Assembly (NCBI GenBank): GCA_039030515.1
Contig: JBCCEA010000006.1
Location: 1 to 64,000 of the forward strand
Source of the DNA: Myxococcota bacterium
Lineage (GTDB): Bacteria; Myxococcota_A; Polyangia; Polyangiales; Houyiibacteriaceae
Direction of reading: 5' to 3'
Length of the DNA: 64,000 nt
Below are positions 1 through 9,000 of the stretch, piece after piece; within the stretch, counting starts at the first letter, position 1; each line of letters starts with the position of its first letter. A program made the position numbers.

Positions 1-3000
1 AATTGCATTAAGAAAGTTTGGTACTGTGAGCGAAATACTGAAAGACAAAATCGAGCGAGCAAAGCAAGAGATCGAATTGCATGTTGGCACATGTGGCGCT
101 CCAAACTGCCGTCGCAAAGGACTCTCTGAAATCTTTCACAAAACTGTAGAGACATATAGTCGGGGGGAGCATGGCGATCGGAATAAGTTTCTTCAGAGGA
201 CCATTCGTGACCTTTTTGATAAGAACATCCGCGTTATCGAAGATCAATTCTGCAATACAATGGACAACATTTATTCATATATAAAGTCTGTTCCGGCAGA
301 TTTCTCAAAATCCATTAATTCTTTATTAAAACATGATATGTACAATAAAGTCTGCTCTGGGGAACTGGCAAACAAGATAAAAAAAACAATTATTTCAGTC
401 ACAAATATTTGCAAAAAGTACGCATCCATTAATAGTCAATACAAAGAGGGACTTGGCGTTACCGCAGATCAAATGGCGAGCCTTGAAAAGGATCTTTCGG
501 ACCTCAGAATAGACTTGATTGAACTGAATCATTCCGTGGTCGAAGTATCAACTCTCTATCACGGAGAGGGGACACGGACGCAACATCGTAAAAATGCCCG
601 AGAACTCAAGCGACTCTTCCGCCAGGCAATTAAGGCTCGCGAGAGCCAGCAAAAGACAATAACATCCCTGACCGAAACTTCTCGTCGGTGCCTCGTGGAG
701 CCCCTGCATGCTGTTCAAAGTTGCCTCGCGCTGGTCGCCGATGTGGCGGTGGCGGCGCAGGACCATACACGGGAGCGAGCACATGAAATTAGGAGTGATT
801 CGCACGACACAAACCGACCCACAGTCTGTGACCCGGCTAGCATGATGCGCAGGATAAGCTCCATTTTGACCCAAATGAGCCCCCTCATCTCGGCTCAAGC
901 TTCTGTTGGAATCGAAGGTGCAACGTTGGGAAATTCGGATGGATGGTACGCTCGAATGCCTAGCGTTCAAGCTCAACTGGGCATTATGCTGCGTAACTGC
1001 TGTCCAACTTTCTTAGGCAGTCCATTCCAACCACCTTATAACAACTCTCATGAAATAGACCGAGGCATAGCTAGACTTGAACTTTCGTGGGCGAATTTAA
1101 CTACATCTTTTCACTTTCGAAGCAAGCGCCCTCACAGTGAAGTAGACAAACACCTCAGAACTATGCTGTTGGAGGAAGGTTCATGGATGCCAAGACTTCA
1201 AGCCGAGATTCATCAGCTTGCGGCAGCCTACGTTACAGGGATGCGTGACATTGACCAGCAGATTAGGGACGTTGAACGAGATCTGGGTCTGTTCAAAAGA
1301 AATTCAAGAGCCTTGAGTGACCGAAGATCACCTCAAACTCCCGCTCGCGCTGAACCGCGGCCCGCCGCGGCGGCGAGTCCAGCTAAAACCTTTCGTCAAG
1401 GAGCATCGCAAACGGGGGCCCTATTACATCCTGAACCCACTCCATCGACGTTGCCGTCCGCCACCGGCTTTACAGGCGCGGGGCCCGTTGACTCGACGTT
1501 TGGACGTACTGCTGGCAGGCACGAAGACCCACCCGAGTTCAAAAAAGCACGACGTCGTTATCAGCGGGCACAGAGTAACGATCATAGGGCTTCGACCCTA
1601 ACGGCAATTAAGACTCAACCTCTCCCTGGGCATCACGAGATCTCAGTCCGTTGGGGCTTCTTTGCCGCTGGTGAGATGACTCTTTTTGATGAATTATGTT
1701 CTAATCATCTTCCTTGTGCAGACATATTAGCTTGGAATACTATAGTCTTGCGTGAGATAGAAAGGCCGAACCGGCCCCTAGCGAATCACTGCTTCACAGG
1801 CCGCTTCCAGAATCGAAACTTGATGCATTTTACTATCCCACGCATCAATATAGCTCTTTTTTATACCCATATCGAGAATGAAGTTGCGATCTATATCGTG
1901 GCAAGACACGTCGGAAGAGGCAACGATCGCTACCGCGGAGAGGGGTCTGTGCCCGAGAGTCCAGGAAGACAATTCAGCACAACAGTTACGCTAAAGTAAG
2001 GTTCCTATCTAACGTGAAGTGCTTTGTGTCGTTTCGTCGTTTACACCGATCGACGGAGCCCCAAACATCCTCGCAGTTTTCTGGGCGCTGGGTTTACTGA
2101 GTGTACCGGGGTTTACTGAGCACGCGGACGTCTTTGGCATTCGGAACGAGCGGACACCAATAACTGCACGATATCAGGCTGAGTTTTGGTATGCTTGGCC
2201 ACATGGCGATTCGTCATCGCAGTCATGGAAGTGGTCAGTTCACCCCTTCAGAACTCGCCCAGTGCGGACAAGACTGCGTCTTTGAGTTCGGCTCCCCCAG
2301 AACCTGACCGGGTACGATGTTCATGACGTCAGTGCTGGAACTTTGCAGCAAGAATTGACGGGAACCTGACCGGGTACGGTGTTTCGTGACCGGGTACGAA
2401 AGTGCCTCCGGCGAACGAGCTGACGACCCGGCGGCGCCCGCCGCATTGCAGCCCCTCCAAACCTGACCGGGTACGGTGTTTGTGGCGATGGAAACCTGAC
2501 TGGGTACGGTATTTATGACGGCAGTGCTGGAATGTTGCAGCGTTGATTGATGAAAACCTGACCGGGTACGGTCGTGGCAGCCCCTCCAAGCATGACCGGG
2601 TACGGTCGTGGTGTCCTGGTGGGTCTTCTCGCGCAACCACGGTCCACTACATTGGCTATCGCGAAGCCGCTCTTTGGACAAAGGTTGGTACATCAGCCGG
2701 CCAGCGAGATAGAGTCTTCGTGCGAATGCCAAATCCCAAGTCGCACGCAGTGCACATGTCCAGTCGGCATCGATCCTAAACCGGGCAGGTTTGGGAAGAT
2801 AATTACAACAGTATGATGACAAAGAAACCGTGACCAAAGAGCCTAAACTCAACGTATTTGGAGGCGTATTCACCCCCTCGATCCTTACGATCCTCGGGGT
2901 GATCATGTATCTACGATTGCCCTGGATCGTCGGCAGCGCAGGCCTTTGGATGACTCTGGGCATCATTGTTGCGGCTCATGTCGTCTCCATTACGACAGGG

Positions 3001-6000: not shown

Positions 6001-9000
6001 GCGGCGATCGCTCATCGCGCTCGAGAGCAGGCAGCCCTCGGTATGCGTAACGGTCTTATCTCGGACTTTGATAAGCTCCGAACCGCACTTCAGGATTGGC
6101 TGGACCAAGAGGATGGGAGTGTCGCTGACCAGCGAGCGAGGCTAAGGGTCCCTTTAGACCTGGCCGCTCGTTTTGAAGCGAAGCCTATCGTGGATCGACT
6201 TGTGCGAGAAACAGCGACGCTCACAGGCAGCCTGCCGGAGTCCGCTTCGACCCTGAGCGATGAATCGATACGGGCGCTTGAACTAGGTCGTAGTGCCGCT
6301 CCTGAGGTTCGGAACTTGTCTGTCCGAGGTGTAGCTCAGTTTTTGCTAGAGACGGAGTTTGTCAGTGGGCTCCAAAGCGACCTGGAACGCGTCGCACCCA
6401 TCGAGATTCACGCGGTAGCCGTGGCTCGTGATTCGGTGCGCCTGCTTGCGTTTCACGTTTCTGAAGCGGATGAGGTGGATCGCGAACTTTTTCGAGATCA
6501 TCTGCGGCCGGTGGTGGAGAGCTCACTACAGCGAATCTCCGCGGAACACGATCAGCTCATGCCGCTCGGTGCCAGGTTAGAATCGGCATTTCGTGAGCGC
6601 TTAGCGAACGTGATTCAGGGCACCAATGCGTACGAGATCTCCAAGACCTCAGATCACTTAACCCGCCAATTTCGGGTCGCAGAAGGCAAGAAAGCGATTC
6701 ACGGGATGCAGGGGAGGGTGCAGCGGGCGGCAGCCGCACTCCGCCGTGCGATGGTATACCTGTTGTATCGCCGCAGCGCCGGCATGGTTCTCGCCAAAAG
6801 GCTTGAGCAGGAAGCGCAACATCGAGGGCCCTTGGCGGTACGGGTCGCAAGTTTCGTTCGGACCCTCCGTCCCTCTGTGCTCGAGCAGCTACCTTTCTAC
6901 TACCATCAGCTTTTTTTCGGGCAGTCCAGTATCAGTAAGAGCTTTTGGGTTGAGCGACCTGTAGAAATGCGCAGTGCCAAAGAGGCACTCATGAGATACC
7001 GGTCCGGCAGCGACGGGGCATTGGTGGTCATAGGTGAACGTTTCTCTGGTAAAACCGCACTATGTCATCGCATCGTGCAACAATCGCTGTCCGGCGAGCA
7101 GGTGTGTTGGGTGCATCCTCCTACCGGTGGTTCTTGCAACCTGGAGGATTTCTCTGAGGCGTTGCGGGTAGCCTCGCAGTTGAACGGCACTCCCGAAGAG
7201 ATCCTCGATCAATTGCGCGATGGCTCCGTCGTAGTGATCGACGATCTCGAGCTGTGGTGGGAACGAGTGGAAGATGGCTTTTCAGTCGTGGACCTCATCT
7301 TGAAACTCATCGAACGATATGGCCGACGACACCTTATCGTCCTTGGCTGTGGTCTATATGCGTTTCGACTACTCGATCGCCTGAGGCCACTTTCTGAGAG
7401 TTCTCTTTCGATTATAGAATGCGGGCCTATGGAGGCGGAGGCGCTAAAGCGTGTGGTGTTGATCCGACACGGCTCTGCCGGAATGAAGTTTGAGCTTGCA
7501 GGGCGCAGTGAAGAACAGCTTTCGCAGTGGTCGTTGGCAAATCTTTTCTCCAAGCATTTCGACTACAGCGGAGGCGTAGTCGGTGTGGCACTCAGAAGTT
7601 GGATCGCCGGCATTCGAGACGTTCAAGGGGTTGCTTTGAAGATCGAAGTTCCAGACCGGCGCAACTGGGGAGTGCTCGACGAGCTCAGAAGCGAATGGGT
7701 GGCTCTTTTGCTTCAACTGGTATTGCGTAAGCACGCAAGTTTTGCCGCCTTGAGTCGATGTTCTGGCTTGGAAGACGAGTCACTCTCTAGAGAACTACGC
7801 ACCTTGTGCCGAATGGGTCTCCTCGTCGAAGAGCGGGCAGGCGTGTTCGAGCTCGACGCATTTGTGCAGCAGGCCCTAGTTCAACGAATGCATCGTCGAG
7901 GGCTTTTGCCGTGAGCGTTATATTCGATCTGCTCTACTTTACTCTGATCGCGCTTGCGGCTTTTGGCACGCTTCGAGCCATGCGATGGCTCCTCAGCGTG
8001 CTTCCCTGGATGCGACCCTGGGTAGGTTCGGTCGAGCGTCTTTGGCCCGGCGTGACTGCGGCCGTTACTTTGGGGCTTATAGCGCACGCGCTGCGCTCGG
8101 CATTTAGCGATTCTCCCGAGCGGTTTCCCGTGATGGGTGTCGCACTCATTGCCGCGCTGCTACTGCTCATTTGGAATCCTGCACGTGACATGGCAACTGG
8201 AGTGCTTTTGAAAGGTTTGGGCGCTTTTCCCTTGGGAACCCTAGTGCGCATGGATGGGCTTGAGGGACGAGTCGCGCATCTGGGTTTGCGCGCCATAACG
8301 CTGACCACCGTCGACGGTGAAGAAGCCGTCGTACCGTTTTCGAAGGTGGCGAGCGCCTCAGTCGTTCGAAGCCTAAGCAAAAGTCACACGTCACCGCATA
8401 TGTTCCGAGTTCACTTGCCCGCAGGCATGACGGTTGCCCACGCCCGCAGGCAGATTCGCAAGGTTGCGCTTCTACAGCATTGGAGCTCCGTAGCTCGGGA
8501 TCCAGAAGTGAAGCTGATCGATCGAGACTGGCTGGAAGTGACCGCGTTCACGCTAGATGCCGACCACGTTCCAAGAATCGAACAAGCCATTCGCAGAGGT
8601 CTGCTTGAAGAAGGTGCGGTGCCGTTCAAGTCGAATAAAGAGTGATGATAGTCAGCTTTTTTTAGACTCTGATAGTCAGCTTTTTTTGGGTTCTGCTGGA
8701 GTGAACTCGTTTTGTTCAATTGTGAAAGGTTCGTCTATGTGCGTATCGTGAAAACGCTCGTAGTCGATAAGGATACGGCCGTCTGGTAGGTCGGCAACGA
8801 CGTCTACGAATCGCGAATTGAATCGAATATCCTCTGGATACCAAATGCGTTGGGCATGCGTTGTTTGCGCATATGTCGAGTCAAAACCCGTCAAGATTCC
8901 TATGAAAAGCAGTGCCTTTTCTTCCATGTCTTTAGATTCAATACCGTGGAGTGGACTCTGCTCGTCGATAATGTGAATCATGAGCCAAGACAGGGCAAAG

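What a model noticed while it worked through the whole genome (the two positions that open the first line are those of the whole stretch)
2830..7914. Animal-like cation-chloride cotransporter carrying a 1000-residue cytoplasmic tail that ends in a P-loop NTPase
g00796 (1694 aa) begins as an SLC12/KCC-type cation-chloride cotransporter (res 1-~690, 28-29% identical to human KCC1/3/4), continues with ~650 residues of no known family and ends in a ~300-residue module with Walker A (GERFSGKTAL) and Walker B-like (VVVIDDLELWW) motifs. I read it as a cotransporter switched by its own nucleotide-driven cytoplasmic machine, a bacterial alternative to the kinase switch of animal KCC/NKCC. Prokaryotic SLC12 members are known as short transporters; a self-regulating giant form would be new.
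Evidence so far: pfam.tsv: AA_permease 13-410 only; 1284 residues without Pfam domain. Call 116: best hits human SLC12A7 28.5% over query 3-643 (E 1e-61), SLC12A4, SLC12A6; 11 hydrophobic segments, all before res 390; tail sequence with the two motifs. An ordinary SLC12 gene also exists (g01119, 735 aa). Call 160: the last 394 residues find matches in 9 of 30 other genomes of the family (E 1e-11 to 1.5e-72, 25-40% identity), each inside an open frame of 1166-1688 aa, in four genera.
(Added by a program. Inside this text positions count along the whole contig: contig position 1 is position 1 of the stretch shown here. "Call 12" and the like, gene names such as g00115 and contig names such as C1 are that model's own, and its searches are not shown. 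The text may have been shortened before it was handed on; [...] marks where a part breaks off. The agent that wrote the report below was given it as the finding of a first reader that could run no searches.)

Follow-up and report, generated by a model that had tools for sequence, protein, structure and literature searches.

The report
Salt transporter with built-in ATPase tail
A bacterial relative of animal salt cotransporters carries a 985-residue tail ending in an ATP-binding switch, which is predicted to grip a small pressure-release channel encoded right behind it, pointing to an undescribed way for bacteria to control salt and cell volume.

Summary
The 1694-aa ORF (2830..7914, +) is real. 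Layout: SLC12 membrane domain (1-~430), SLC12 C-terminal domain (~431-710), two long helical bundles with no specific PDB match (~736-1329), then an AAA+ ATPase with lid and winged helix (~1372-1694), closest to Orc1/Cdc6 and archaeal AAA+ ATPases.

It is a large family across several phyla. In 60 of 62 public loci with enough upstream DNA, the SLC12 domain sits upstream of the ATPase; 52 of those 60 are one unbroken frame. Walker A, Walker B, the DDLELWWE motif and an Arg-His pair are invariant or nearly so in 63 sequences.

New points:
- A ~244-aa MscS-like channel gene follows directly (59 of 66 loci; here its GTG overlaps the TGA stop).
- A complex prediction docks that protein's cytoplasmic domain onto the ATPase/winged helix (score 0.62; best control 0.00).
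- The same ATPase module ends Na+/H+-exchanger-type proteins in related genomes.
- TM8 carries the Na+-site serines of NKCC/NCC, not the KCC residues.

My reading (about 50%): an ATP-dependent switch links salt uptake to a mechanosensitive release valve. The purely self-regulating mechanism is untested and probably incomplete. My literature searches found no description.

The parts
2830..7914 (+). Whole fusion gene, 1694 aa, GTG start, TGA stop
   Evidence: The start aligns with the family N-terminus. Contigs of two other runs of the same study cover all 30 bins with no insertion or deletion.
2830..4119 (+). SLC12 membrane domain (res 1-430; 11 hydrophobic segments by my simple scan)
   Evidence: Pfam AA_permease 13-410, E 8.5e-41. 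KCC4 7d99 E 7.8e-65 for this part alone. Hydropathy scan. TM1, TM3, TM6 and TM10 motifs are conserved against KCC4.
3649..3675 (+). TM8 motif ATISSALGS (res 274-282) with the Na+-site Ala and Ser-Ser of NKCC/NCC
   Evidence: It aligns to NKCC1 AGIFSATLSSALAS, whereas KCC4 has STCGAGLQS there. The Na+-site residues are named in a passage of PMC9784483.
4120..4959 (+). SLC12 cytoplasmic C-terminal domain (res ~431-710)
   Evidence: phmmer matches to KCC structures run to residue 643-650. An ordinary SLC12 paralogue aligns to residue 669. PF03522 is recorded in relatives P0008, P0011, P0039 and P0040. Pfam does not see it in the query itself.
5035..5826 (+). Helical bundle 1 (res ~736-999): four helices of 45-55 residues plus a small beta insert
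   Evidence: AF2 model m8a84b32bbc75, pLDDT 87.9, pTM 0.81. Foldseek finds no PDB match better than E 0.26. VIA finds only generic helical bundles.
5881..6816 (+). Helical bundle 2 (res ~1018-1329): helices up to 75 residues
   Evidence: Best VIA Z is 14.4 (rmsd 4.1 A, 173 aligned) to a de novo designed bundle, within the range the tool calls unspecific for helical proteins.
6889..6957 (+). Conserved pre-ATPase segment LPFYYHQLF ... FWVER (res 1354-1376)
   Evidence: P1355, Y1358 and F1362 are conserved. The Pfam AAA_16 match starts here (tail residues 74-166 = protein 1374-1466).
6958..7422 (+). AAA+ alpha/beta core (res ~1377-1531)
   Evidence: Model m7d39005566dc, pLDDT 88.1. Foldseek hits RuvB, archaeal AAA+ 2qen/2fna and Orc1/Cdc6 at E 2e-9 to 6e-8. 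VIA Z is 14-15. The profile against PDB sequences finds only AAA+ proteins.
7033..7056 (+). Walker A GERFSGKT (res 1402-1409)
   Evidence: both Gly 63 of 63, Lys 60 of 63, Thr/Ser 63 of 63.
7228..7266 (+). Walker B and family signature VVVIDDLELWWER (res 1467-1479)
   Evidence: DDLELWWE is identical in 63 of 63; position 1479 is R or K in 61 of 63. Residues 1479-1481 lie in the predicted interface with the MscS-like protein.
7435..7644 (+). Lid (helical) domain with invariant R1546-H1547 (candidate sensor 2)
   Evidence: Secondary structure. R1546 and H1547 are kept in 63 of 63. The 'sensor 2' role is inferred from their position in the lid.
7663..7911 (+). C-terminal winged helix (res ~1612-1694), ending RRGLLP
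   Evidence: Model. Weak ArsR/MarR-type matches. Mean net charge is +1.4, and the recognition-helix equivalent averages -0.56. Residues 1621-1632, 1644-1646 and 1689-1694 lie in the predicted interface.
7911..8645 (+). Small MscS-like channel gene (244 aa); its GTG start overlaps the fusion's TGA stop (GTGA)
   Evidence: PF00924 E 1.4e-8, 35.2 bits against a cutoff of 20.2. Overlap read. It sits downstream of the fusion in all 26 loci L002-L027 and in 59 of 66 named loci. Predicted binding.

Best explanation
This is a two-gene salt and volume module.

Shown by the sequence and searches:
- Gene 1 encodes a complete SLC12 cation-chloride cotransporter: a membrane domain with its own C-terminal domain.
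- The protein continues with two long helical bundles and ends in an AAA+ ATPase with lid and winged helix. The nucleotide-site residues of that ATPase are conserved across phyla.
- Gene 2 starts inside the stop codon of gene 1. It encodes a minimal MscS-type mechanosensitive channel.

Predicted:
- The ATPase/winged-helix module binds the cytoplasmic C-terminal domain of the MscS-like protein.
- The contacts come from the loop after Walker B (WWER), the helix after strand 4, the first helix of the winged helix, and the C-terminal RGLL tail. These elements surround the nucleotide pocket.

Inferred:
- The transporter takes up salt, probably Na+ and K+ with Cl-, when turgor must be raised. The channel releases solutes when membrane tension rises.
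- The ATPase acts as a nucleotide-dependent switch or timer. Its ATP or ADP state decides whether tail and channel are engaged.
- The helical bundles and the SLC12 C-terminal domain carry that state to the transport gate, so uptake and release are not both active.

The same ATPase module on Na+/H+ exchanger-type proteins suggests a general nucleotide-switch tail for ion transporters.
For: Architecture and family:
- establish SLC12 plus its C-terminal domain.
- The tail search found 41 relatives, 37 of them with PF00324 and about 1650-1770 aa long.
- In 60 of 62 loci the SLC12 domain is collinear upstream of the ATPase, and 52 of those 60 are one frame.
- Of the top 150 representatives, 96 are at least 1600 aa, and 95 of those carry the SLC12 domain.
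- The ATPase-module profile, which also covers the other fusion types, finds 2807 clusters at E <= 1e-30.
- Loci carry names from Myxococcota, Calditrichota, Bacteroidota, Ignavibacteria-type, Chlorobiota and two alphaproteobacterial MAGs.

ATPase:
- The model has pLDDT 88. Fold matches are, and profile matches.
- Invariant site residues are counted.

Partner:
- The MscS-like gene follows in 26 of 26 loci and in 59 of 66 loci (48 by tblastn, 11 more by Pfam).
- Stop and start overlap in the window. Starts lie within a few bases of the ATPase end elsewhere.
- Complex prediction: score 0.62, 0.63 and 0.61 in three runs; best of 3 controls 0.00. The runs share at least 81% of contacts and the partner's pLDDT is 70. 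The mark was reached by 116 of 157 solved complexes and 2 of 215 mismatched pairs.
- I know of no solved AAA+/MscS complex that could be remembered (recall, not searched).
- The paralogues examined on Na+/H+ exchangers lack the WWER motif. No MscS-like gene was found in their loci with this query.

Direction of transport:
- The Na+-site serines are present.
- The Tyr, Pro and Thr of the TM3 and TM6 motifs are kept. Their role as K+ and Cl- ligands is recalled.
Against: - No experiment of any kind exists. Binding is only a model's confidence, obtained with my own unpaired alignments and a monomer of a protein that normally forms heptamers. Whether the predicted surface is free in a heptamer was not tested.
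- By simple column identity, the ATPase-side interface residues are not more conserved than the rest of the module: 0.405 against 0.486, and 9561 of 10000 random sets scored as high or higher.
- The channel side is only mildly enriched: 0.488 against 0.415, with 776 of 10000 random sets as high.
- In 7 of 66 loci with at least 1000 nt downstream, no MscS-like gene was found next to the fusion.
- The sensor-1 position is Gly in this protein and in 10 others of the 63, so hydrolysis may be slow here.
- The WHD histidine column holds Arg in this protein alone.
- Nothing shows how a signal would cross about 600 residues of helical bundle.
- The substrate and the direction of transport are inferred from a few residues.
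Confidence: 0.5

Rival explanations
1. Self-contained switch. The ATPase tail regulates only its own transporter in cis. The MscS-like gene is merely co-expressed because both serve osmotic adaptation.
For: The covalent fusion is kept in 52 of 60 loci as one frame. The same module sits on Na+/H+ exchanger proteins, and no MscS-like gene was found in their loci. Seven of 66 loci show no adjacent MscS-like gene.
Against: The complex prediction passes clearly: 0.62 against a best control of 0.00; 2 of 215 mismatched pairs reach the mark. The gene pair is kept across phyla with overlapping or abutting stop and start. The WWE[RK] motif is found in the SLC12-type proteins and not in the paralogues examined.
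Confidence: 0.2
2. Assembly or holding factor. The AAA+ module acts on the MscS-like protein itself: it chaperones, sequesters or assembles its subunits at the transporter, as some membrane AAA+ proteins help assemble partners. It does not switch transport.
For: The predicted contact is with a single MscS-like subunit's C-terminal domain. The genes are translationally coupled. ExeA/GspA is a membrane AAA_22 ATPase that helps assemble a partner (recalled), and the third paralogue type matches AAA_22 above threshold.
Against: No pore-loop or ring features were looked for or seen. The best fold matches are switch- and loader-type AAA+ proteins rather than unfoldases, though many rows are tied. 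This reading gives no reason for fusion to a transporter through a 600-residue arm.
Confidence: 0.12
3. Membrane-tethered regulator (transceptor). The transporter senses ions, and the ATPase plus winged helix binds DNA to control transcription, like AAA_16/MalT-type regulators or the LysP-CadC pair.
For: The winged helix gives weak ArsR/MarR-type matches: E 0.085, E 2e-4 to 5e-4 against PDB sequences, E 0.079. In Orc1/Cdc6, the best fold match, this domain binds DNA (its function is recalled).
Against: The winged helix has a mean net charge of only +1.4. The helix in the recognition position averages -0.56 and is variable and rich in Asp/Glu in 25 orthologues. That same domain is predicted to contact the MscS-like protein.
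Confidence: 0.08
4. Conflict or defence system: a STAND-like NTPase with a membrane effector that collapses ion gradients on infection.
For: The layout is NBD, helical domain and winged helix, with an hhhhDD Walker B. Weak nSTAND_NTPase5 matches appear (E 0.05; E 7e-4 in a paralogue).
Against: PADLOC gives no system hit; only a Csa3 winged-helix match at E 0.0035. There are no sensor repeats after the winged helix. The 'effector' is a complete transporter with conserved ion sites. The neighbour is a housekeeping-type channel.
Confidence: 0.03
5. Artefact: a chimeric assembly or a read-through of two genes.
For: Eight of 60 related loci are interrupted by a frameshift or stop.
Against: The same collinear layout appears in 60 of 62 independent loci, and 52 of those 60 are single frames. 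The interruptions examined lie at different places: query residues about 535-545, about 650 and about 1200. Two other runs cover the gene without indels.
Confidence: 0.01

Closest known systems
SLC12 / cation-chloride cotransporters (NKCC1, NCC, KCC1-4; prokaryotic CCCs such as the Methanosarcina acetivorans protein whose C-terminal domain was solved)
   Same: LeuT-fold membrane domain followed by the SLC12 cytoplasmic domain. The TM1, TM3, TM6, TM8 and TM10 motifs are kept.
   Different: It carries 985 extra residues after the SLC12 C-terminal domain. No long N-terminal regulatory segment precedes TM1. The described prokaryotic members and this genome's own paralogue are about 735-765 aa (passage of PMC4301019). 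TIGR00930 scores 346 bits against a cutoff of 953.
Orc1/Cdc6 initiators and archaeal AAA+ ATPases (PDB 2qby, 1w5t, 2v1u, 2qen, 2fna; Pfam ATPase_2, AAA_16)
   Same: AAA+ core, lid and C-terminal winged helix in the same order. An F-x-V/G-R-x-x-E segment precedes Walker A. VIA Z is 14.9 (rmsd 6.9 A, 276 aligned) for 2qby_B and 14.8 (rmsd 5.6 A, 316 aligned) for 1w5t_C. Foldseek E is 3e-9 to 6e-8.
   Different: Sequence identity is 11-16%. All Pfam scores are below threshold (AAA_16 21.7 bits against 32.6). The winged helix is not basic. The module is fused to a transporter. The DDLELWWE[RK] signature is its own. The fold match is tied with clamp loaders, TnsC and NSF D2 (Z about 14).
STAND NTPases (Apaf-1, NLRs, MalT)
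   Same: Nucleotide-binding domain, helical domain and winged helix act as an ADP/ATP switch. Both have an hhhhDD Walker B. A histidine is conserved in the winged helix (62 of 63). Apaf-1 3sfz appears among the Foldseek hits (E 1.9e-7).
   Different: There are no sensor repeats after the winged helix. There is no death-fold or enzyme effector. Comparing the histidine to the MHD motif rests on recall only.
Nucleotide-binding regulatory domains on ion transporters (RCK/KTN on KefC, Trk and Ktr; CBS on OpuA, ClC and MgtE; ATP bound in KCC C-terminal domains)
   Same: The principle is the same: a cytoplasmic nucleotide-binding domain fused or bound to a transporter sets its activity (recalled).
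   Different: Those domains are small ligand sensors next to the membrane and do not hydrolyse ATP. Here an AAA+ ATPase sits at the end of a ~600-residue helical arm.
WNK-SPAK/OSR1 kinase control of animal NKCC/KCC
   Same: The same physiological task: reciprocal control of salt uptake and release for cell volume (recalled; reviews were seen only in the listings).
   Different: That control works by phosphorylating N- and C-terminal segments. No kinase or phospho-sites were examined here, and the switch is part of the transporter itself.
MscS family (E. coli MscS; MscK/KefA) for the neighbour gene
   Same: The beta-domain PF00924 scores above threshold (35.2 bits against 20.2). I read three hydrophobic helices before it by eye, of which my scan marks two.
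   Different: It has only 244 aa. It is predicted to be held by a transporter's ATPase tail. No such partner is known to me for MscS proteins (recall; the search found none).

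Membership tests
SLC12 / CCC (TC 2.A.30) | APC/LeuT-fold membrane domain with specific similarity to SLC12 members | tested here: met
   KCC4 7d99 E 5.3e-78. All 32 SLC12 PDB sequences rank above the other APC transporters, the next being MJ0609 at E 8e-10. TIGR00930 E 4e-103, though below its full-length cutoff.
SLC12 / CCC (TC 2.A.30) | SLC12-type cytoplasmic C-terminal domain after TM12 | tested here: met
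   Matches to KCC structures run to residue 643-650. The protein is collinear with an ordinary SLC12 paralogue to residue 669. PF03522 is recorded in 4 relatives. Pfam itself finds nothing in the query's residues 431-710.
SLC12 / CCC (TC 2.A.30) | Ion-site residues in TM1, TM3, TM6, TM8 and TM10 | tested here: met
   The alignments keep Y105, P197, T200, Y348, and A274/S277/S278. The Na+ site is taken from a passage of PMC9784483; the K+ and Cl- roles are recalled.
SLC12 / CCC (TC 2.A.30) | Coupled cation-chloride transport | not testable with these tools
   Needs flux assays.
   The query has ATISSAL like NKCC1 ATLSSAL, while KCC4 has STCGAGL. The TM8 segment scores E 1.2e-8 against NKCC1 and 2.2e-4 against KCC1.
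AAA+ ATPases | Walker A GxxxxGK[ST] and Walker B hhhhD[DE] | tested here: met
AAA+ ATPases | alpha/beta core followed by a helical lid | tested here: met
   The model has pLDDT 88.1. All 997 chains aligned in the second look scored Z >= 5, the top ones 14-15. All 500 Foldseek matches counted have E <= 0.001, and every row shown is an AAA+ or a related P-loop switch protein.
AAA+ ATPases | Sensor 1 polar residue at the end of strand 4 | tested here: inconclusive
   Position 1508 is N, S, T or D in 52 of 63 sequences, but Gly in the query and 10 others. The position was assigned from the model's strand 4.
AAA+ ATPases | Arginine finger and sensor 2 arginine | tested here: inconclusive
   R1546 in the lid is kept in 63 of 63 and is a sensor-2 candidate. 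R1513, R1517 and R1519 after strand 4 are kept in only 23-26 of 63. No oligomer was modelled.
Orc1/Cdc6-like or Pfam AAA_16 / ATPase_2 | Score above the curated Pfam threshold | tested here: not met
   AAA_16 21.7 bits (cutoff 32.6), ATPase_2 17.1 (33.2), AAA_22 17.4 (27). Some relatives carry PF13191/PF13401 in the precomputed lists.
Orc1/Cdc6-like or Pfam AAA_16 / ATPase_2 | DNA-binding winged helix | tested here: inconclusive
   The fold is present, but the charge pattern is not that of a DNA binder.
STAND NTPases | C-terminal sensor repeats (TPR, WD40, LRR) after the winged helix | tested here: not met
   The protein ends 5 residues after the last helix of the winged helix.
MscS family (neighbour gene) | PF00924 beta-domain above threshold, after transmembrane helices | tested here: met
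   35.2 bits against 20.2. Hydrophobic segments. 41 aligned orthologues.
Anti-phage defence systems (PADLOC) | Match to a defence protein model | tested here: inconclusive
   Only Csa3 at E 0.0035 over the winged helix.

The most novel reading that the evidence does not exclude
Bacteria of at least five phyla own an ATP-driven volume-control machine. In it a Na+-K+-Cl- importer and a mechanosensitive release channel are physically tied together by an AAA+ switch built into the importer. The same AAA+/winged-helix module is a general, so far unrecognised, regulatory tail for ion transporters: SLC12, CPA/Na+-H+ exchangers, and a third membrane protein with a large periplasmic coiled coil. This would be a prokaryotic counterpart, by a wholly different mechanism, of kinase-controlled reciprocal regulation of salt uptake and release in animal cells.
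Probability: 0.3. Interest if true: 0.85.

Novelty: new variant of a known kind. Interest (0 to 1): 0.72.

Why it matters
SLC12 transporters are among the best-studied human transporters: they are diuretic targets and set neuronal chloride. Their prokaryotic relatives have hardly been studied functionally. This family would show a second, independent solution to the same control problem, an ATPase switch in place of a kinase cascade.

It would also link a secondary transporter directly to a mechanosensitive channel, which to my knowledge has not been described for either family. The family is large and conserved, so it could be expressed and studied by cryo-EM.

It also offers a defined test of whether AAA+ modules can gate transporters. 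It may explain how many uncultivated marine and sediment bacteria handle salt stress.

Tried and rejected
- Middle region: Pfam finds nothing (best DUF6424, E 0.15). Foldseek against the PDB has no match better than E 0.26. The VIA wide search gives only generic helical bundles; the top is Z 14.4 (rmsd 4.1 A, 173 aligned) to a designed protein, within the unspecific range for helical models. I therefore name no fold.
- BLASTP finds no similarity between this middle region and the middle of the Na+/H+ exchanger type or the third type.
- 'Stand-alone' or 'split' forms: the three examined (G098, G037, G103) are broken at different places, by a frameshift near residue 535-545, an in-frame TAG near 650, and a frameshift near 1200. 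I rejected them as natural splits. A near-length search with the tail alone gave only 5 short hits, and those I could trace are fragments from contig ends. The atlas lists clusters of 760-1160 aa with AAA_16/AAA_22; these remain unresolved.
- PADLOC: no defence model.
- Upstream neighbours: nothing conserved. The antisense ORF 2235..2966 matches other loci only where it overlaps the conserved SLC12 start, so it is spurious there.
- RNA evidence: no RNA holder is listed. The contigs laid are DNA only, and no single piece spans the gene.
- Earlier findings of the scan: nothing by place or by sequence.
- Literature: four full-text searches and passages of PMC3924187, PMC4301019 and PMC9784483 gave no description of an SLC12-AAA+ fusion or an SLC12-MscS pair. 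Subscription journals are not covered.
- The search for related loci with the alignment was not possible, so a single protein was used.
- The identity-based conservation test of the predicted interface did not support the ATPase side. It is reported in the Against line.

Full report
**1.

The window has one open frame, 2830..7914 on the + strand, of 1694 codons with a GTG start. The GTG is the true start as far as comparison can tell. The first residues (V/M-T-K-E-P-K-L-N-V-F-G-G-V-F-T-P-S) align with the N-termini of 34 relatives, whose consensus begins MAKDxKFGTFGGVFTPS.

The antisense ORF 2235..2966 that overlaps the start matches other loci only in its first 37 residues. That is the mirror image of the conserved SLC12 start, so it is not a gene there.

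Contigs of two other metagenome runs of the same study cover every 200-base bin of 2700-8700 with substitutions only, no insertion or deletion. No single piece spans the gene.

**2. Residues 1 to about 710 are a complete SLC12 transporter**

- Pfam sees AA_permease at 13-410 (E 8.5e-41).
- NCBIfam TIGR00930 (K-Cl cotransporter) covers 3-564 (E 4e-103). Its 346 bits are far below the 953-bit cutoff of that eukaryote-sized model.
- Among PDB sequences, all 32 SLC12 entries match: KCC4 at E 5.3e-78, NKCC1 about 1e-61, NCC about 1e-52. The next transporter is MJ0609 at E 8e-10.
- The matches to KCCs run to residue 643-650, well into the cytoplasmic domain.
- The same genome has an ordinary SLC12 gene (G000:C9:28737-30761, 40% identity). 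Its 765-aa product aligns with residues 2-669 of the fusion and ends about 50 residues later.

So the SLC12 module ends near residue 710-720. Pfam's SLC12 C-terminal model does not reach significance in the query. It is recorded for four relatives and for the paralogue.

The ion-site motifs are kept against KCC4: TM1 LTILGVIM, TM3 SLYIIG, TM6 FFPAVTGFTAG and TM10 TYGFLN.

TM8 is informative. The query has AGIWGATISSALGS and NKCC1 has AGIFSATLSSALAS, while KCC4 has STCGAGLQS. A review passage states that Na+ in zebrafish NKCC1 is bound by A535, S538 and S539 of TM8 together with two TM1 carbonyls (PMC9784483). These correspond to A274, S277 and S278 here. The TM8 segment alone scores E 1.2e-8 against NKCC1 and 2.2e-4 against KCC1.

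'KCC-type' is therefore not supported. A Na+-coupled (NKCC- or NCC-like) uptake transporter is more likely. This is an inference from a few residues.

**3. Residues about 736-1329 are two long helical bundles without a specific known fold**

An AlphaFold2 model of residues 686-1330, built with 47 sequences, has pLDDT 87.9 and pTM 0.81. It shows helices of 45-75 residues, in two groups of four, with small beta inserts.

- Foldseek finds no PDB match better than E 0.26.
- The search that does not rely on Foldseek gives designed helical bundles, talin rod domains and chemoreceptor-type sensor bundles. The top is Z 14.4 (rmsd 4.1 A, 173 aligned), which the tool's own notes place in the unspecific range for helical proteins.
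- Pfam has nothing.

Across phyla the sequence of this region drifts until BLAST no longer detects it. Its length stays at roughly 500-625 residues, judged from the distance between the C-terminal-domain match and the ATPase match. I read it as a structural arm. Its function is not known.

**4. Residues about 1372-1694 are an AAA+ ATPase with lid and winged helix**

The model of the last 394 residues, built with 35 sequences, has pLDDT 88.1 and pTM 0.84.

- Foldseek's best matches are RuvB, the archaeal AAA+ ATPases 2qen and 2fna, and Orc1/Cdc6 proteins (E 2e-9 to 6e-8).
- The second-look aligner puts Orc1/Cdc6 first: 2qby_B at Z 14.9 (rmsd 6.9 A, 276 aligned) and 1w5t_C at Z 14.8 (rmsd 5.6 A, 316 aligned). 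These are tied within one unit with clamp loaders, TnsC and NSF D2.
- A profile of the module against PDB sequences finds only AAA+ proteins. The longest coverage is for Cdc6/Orc1. Small ArsR-type regulators match the last 80 residues.
- All Pfam scores are below threshold; the best is AAA_16 at 21.7 bits against 32.6.

The module is therefore an unclassified AAA+ family of the Orc1/Cdc6-AAA_16 type.

The nucleotide site is conserved. In 63 SLC12-type sequences from the named loci:

| Feature | Conservation |
|---|---|
| Walker A G1402 and G1407 | 63 of 63 |
| Walker A K1408 | 60 of 63 |
| Walker A T/S1409 | 63 of 63 |
| Walker B D1471, D1472 | 63 of 63 |
| E1474, W1476, W1477, E1478, G1483 | 63 of 63 |
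| Position 1479 | R or K in 61 of 63 |
| R1546, H1547 in the lid | 63 of 63 |
| Sensor-1 position 1508 | N/S/T/D in 52 of 63; Gly in the query and 10 others |
| Histidine in the first winged-helix helix | 62 of 63; the query is the exception |

The winged helix does not look like a DNA binder. Its mean net charge is +1.4. The helix in the recognition position averages -0.56 and is variable.

**5. The fusion is a large, conserved, multi-phylum family**

- The tail found 41 proteins of 931-2965 aa. Of these, 37 carry PF00324 and are about 1650-1770 aa long.
- A profile search of 1.84 billion representatives gave 10739 hits at E <= 0.001 and 2807 at E <= 1e-30. This counts the ATPase module in all its contexts.
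- Of the best 150, 96 are at least 1600 aa, and 95 of those have the SLC12 domain. The 54 shorter ones have none and range from 350 to 1306 aa, as fragments would.
- In the species-representative genomes, 75 loci were found. All are MAGs. Their names include Myxococcota, Polyangiales, Nannocystaceae, Calditrichaceae, Bacteroidales, Marinilabiliales, Prolixibacteraceae, Paludibacter, Melioribacteraceae, Chlorobiota, Hyphomicrobiales and Roseobacteraceae.
- Of 62 loci with at least 4100 bases upstream, 60 have the SLC12 domain collinear upstream. L113 and L119 do not. Of the 60, 52 are one uninterrupted frame.
- The interrupted copies I examined are broken at different places. They are errors or decaying copies, not natural splits.

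**6.

In 201 genomes of the order, 74 have a match to the tail. About 27 are strong (E below 1e-60) and lie in frames of about 1650-1800 aa. The others have about 25% identity.

I fetched ten of those weak ones:
- Seven begin with a Na+/H+ exchanger domain (PF00999) and end with the ATPase and winged helix.
- Three have a signal peptide, a long coiled-coil stretch, 4-6 hydrophobic helices and then the ATPase, with AAA_22 above threshold.

Only the ATPase/winged-helix part is shared with the SLC12 type. The exchanger type is itself a large family. It gave 291 hits. Most of the 120 listed are about 1500 aa with PF00999, and some sources name them cation:proton antiporter.

**7. A partner gene**

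The fusion's TGA stop (7912-7914) overlaps a GTG at 7911. That GTG opens a 244-codon gene, 7911..8645. Its product has hydrophobic helices followed by the MscS beta-domain (PF00924, 35.2 bits against a cutoff of 20.2).

- A homologue lies directly downstream in all 26 orthologue loci of the order.
- In the named loci with at least 1000 bases downstream, tblastn finds it in 48 of 66.
- Pfam finds PF00924 in the next ORF of 11 more. The total is 59 of 66.
- In L069, L072, L075, L077, L099, L118 and L119 it was not found.
- Its start lies within a few bases of the end of the ATPase match in most loci.
- The ordinary SLC12 paralogue shows no recognisable MscS-like gene beside it: the flanking ORFs have no Pfam match. 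None was found next to the exchanger-type paralogues with this query.

**8. Predicted contact**

- The score was 0.62, 0.63 and 0.61 in three runs. The best of three controls was 0.00.
- The runs agree in at least 81% of their contacts. The partner's pLDDT is 70.
- The tool's mark was reached by 116 of 157 solved complexes and 2 of 215 mismatched pairs. Its counts hold only roughly with my own alignments.
- All confident contacts on the fusion lie in the ATPase module: 1479-1481 (the end of the WWER signature), 1510-1518 (the helix after strand 4), 1621-1632 and 1644-1646 (winged helix), and 1689-1694 (the C-terminal RRGLLP).
- On the partner they are 159-160, 183-197 (around W191, which is conserved in 95%, next to the invariant P198) and 215-219.

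The model supports binding; it does not show it.

One result goes against an easy reading. By column identity, the ATPase-side contact residues are no more conserved than the rest of the module: 0.405 against 0.486, and 9561 of 10000 random sets score as high. The partner side is only mildly enriched: 0.488 against 0.415, with 776 of 10000 random sets as high. The invariant W-W-E lies next to the listed contacts, not among them.

The partner was also modelled as a monomer, although MscS proteins form heptamers (recalled).

**9. How it most likely works**

Shown: the domain order, its conservation, the intact nucleotide site, and the gene pair.

Predicted: the contact between the ATPase module and the channel's cytoplasmic domain.

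Inferred: the elements that touch the channel flank the nucleotide pocket, namely the Walker B loop, the helix after strand 4 and the winged helix. The ATP or ADP state should therefore change the engagement. The helical arm and the SLC12 C-terminal domain would pass that state to the transport gate. Salt uptake and solute release would then be coordinated. I give this about 50%.

Rivals:
- an assembly or holding factor for the channel (12%);
- a membrane-tethered DNA-binding regulator (8%), weakened by the charge pattern;
- a defence system (3%);
- an artefact (1%).

**10. Comparison and novelty**

The parts belong to known superfamilies: SLC12, AAA+ and MscS. The combination does not appear in the literature I could search. 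That means four full-text searches and passages of three papers. Papers in subscription journals were not searchable.

Small nucleotide-binding regulatory domains on transporters are well known: RCK, CBS and USP-like domains (recalled). An AAA+ ATPase at the end of a 600-residue arm, holding a mechanosensitive channel, is not. I rate it a new variant of a known kind, with a real chance of being more.

The DNA occurs in marine metagenome runs. No RNA data were available.

Noticed in passing
window 8676..10958 (- strand): A 760-aa ORF joins an LtrA-like membrane domain (PF06772, E 1.7e-51) to an inward-rectifier-type K+ channel (Ion_trans_2, IRK, and IRK_C at E 2.8e-18). It converges on the MscS-like gene. 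It is not found beside the fusion in the other loci.
   Followed up: partly
L033:2021-6619, L034, L035, L036, L037, L042, L043 (genomes of the same order): Proteins of about 1500 aa start with a Na+/H+ exchanger domain (PF00999) and end with the same ATPase/winged-helix module at 21-25% identity. This is a large family: 291 hits, some named cation:proton antiporter by their sources. Their middle region and any partner gene were not studied.
   Followed up: partly
L031:1034-4621 (-), L032:2117-6616 (+), L044:1612-5469 (+): A third context for the module: a signal-peptide-like start, several hundred residues rich in coiled-coil-like sequence, 4-6 hydrophobic helices, then an AAA_22-type ATPase and winged helix. 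No transporter family was recognised.
   Followed up: partly
L039:2261-2263; L038 about 2740-2757; L040 about 2520-2524: Orthologues in three genomes are interrupted: an in-frame TAG near query residue 650, a frameshift near residue 540, and a frameshift near residue 1200. The copy with the TAG also has Arg in place of the Walker A lysine (L016). Whether these are sequencing errors or decay is open.
   Followed up: partly
window 26..1999 (+): A 657-aa ORF has no Pfam match and lies in a stretch of lower G+C (0.46-0.53, against 0.52-0.58 over the fusion gene). It is not found near the fusion in other loci.
   Followed up: no
window 11873..15662 (+): An ABC transporter ATPase (PF00005), an ABC-2 permease, and a 740-aa protein with the ABC_transp_aux and DUF4350 domains lie in a row.
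   Followed up: no
L113 (Bacteroidota MAG) and L119 (Saprospiraceae MAG): These ATPase-module relatives have no SLC12 domain within 6 kb upstream, yet L113 keeps an MscS-like gene downstream. They may be further contexts for the module.
   Followed up: no
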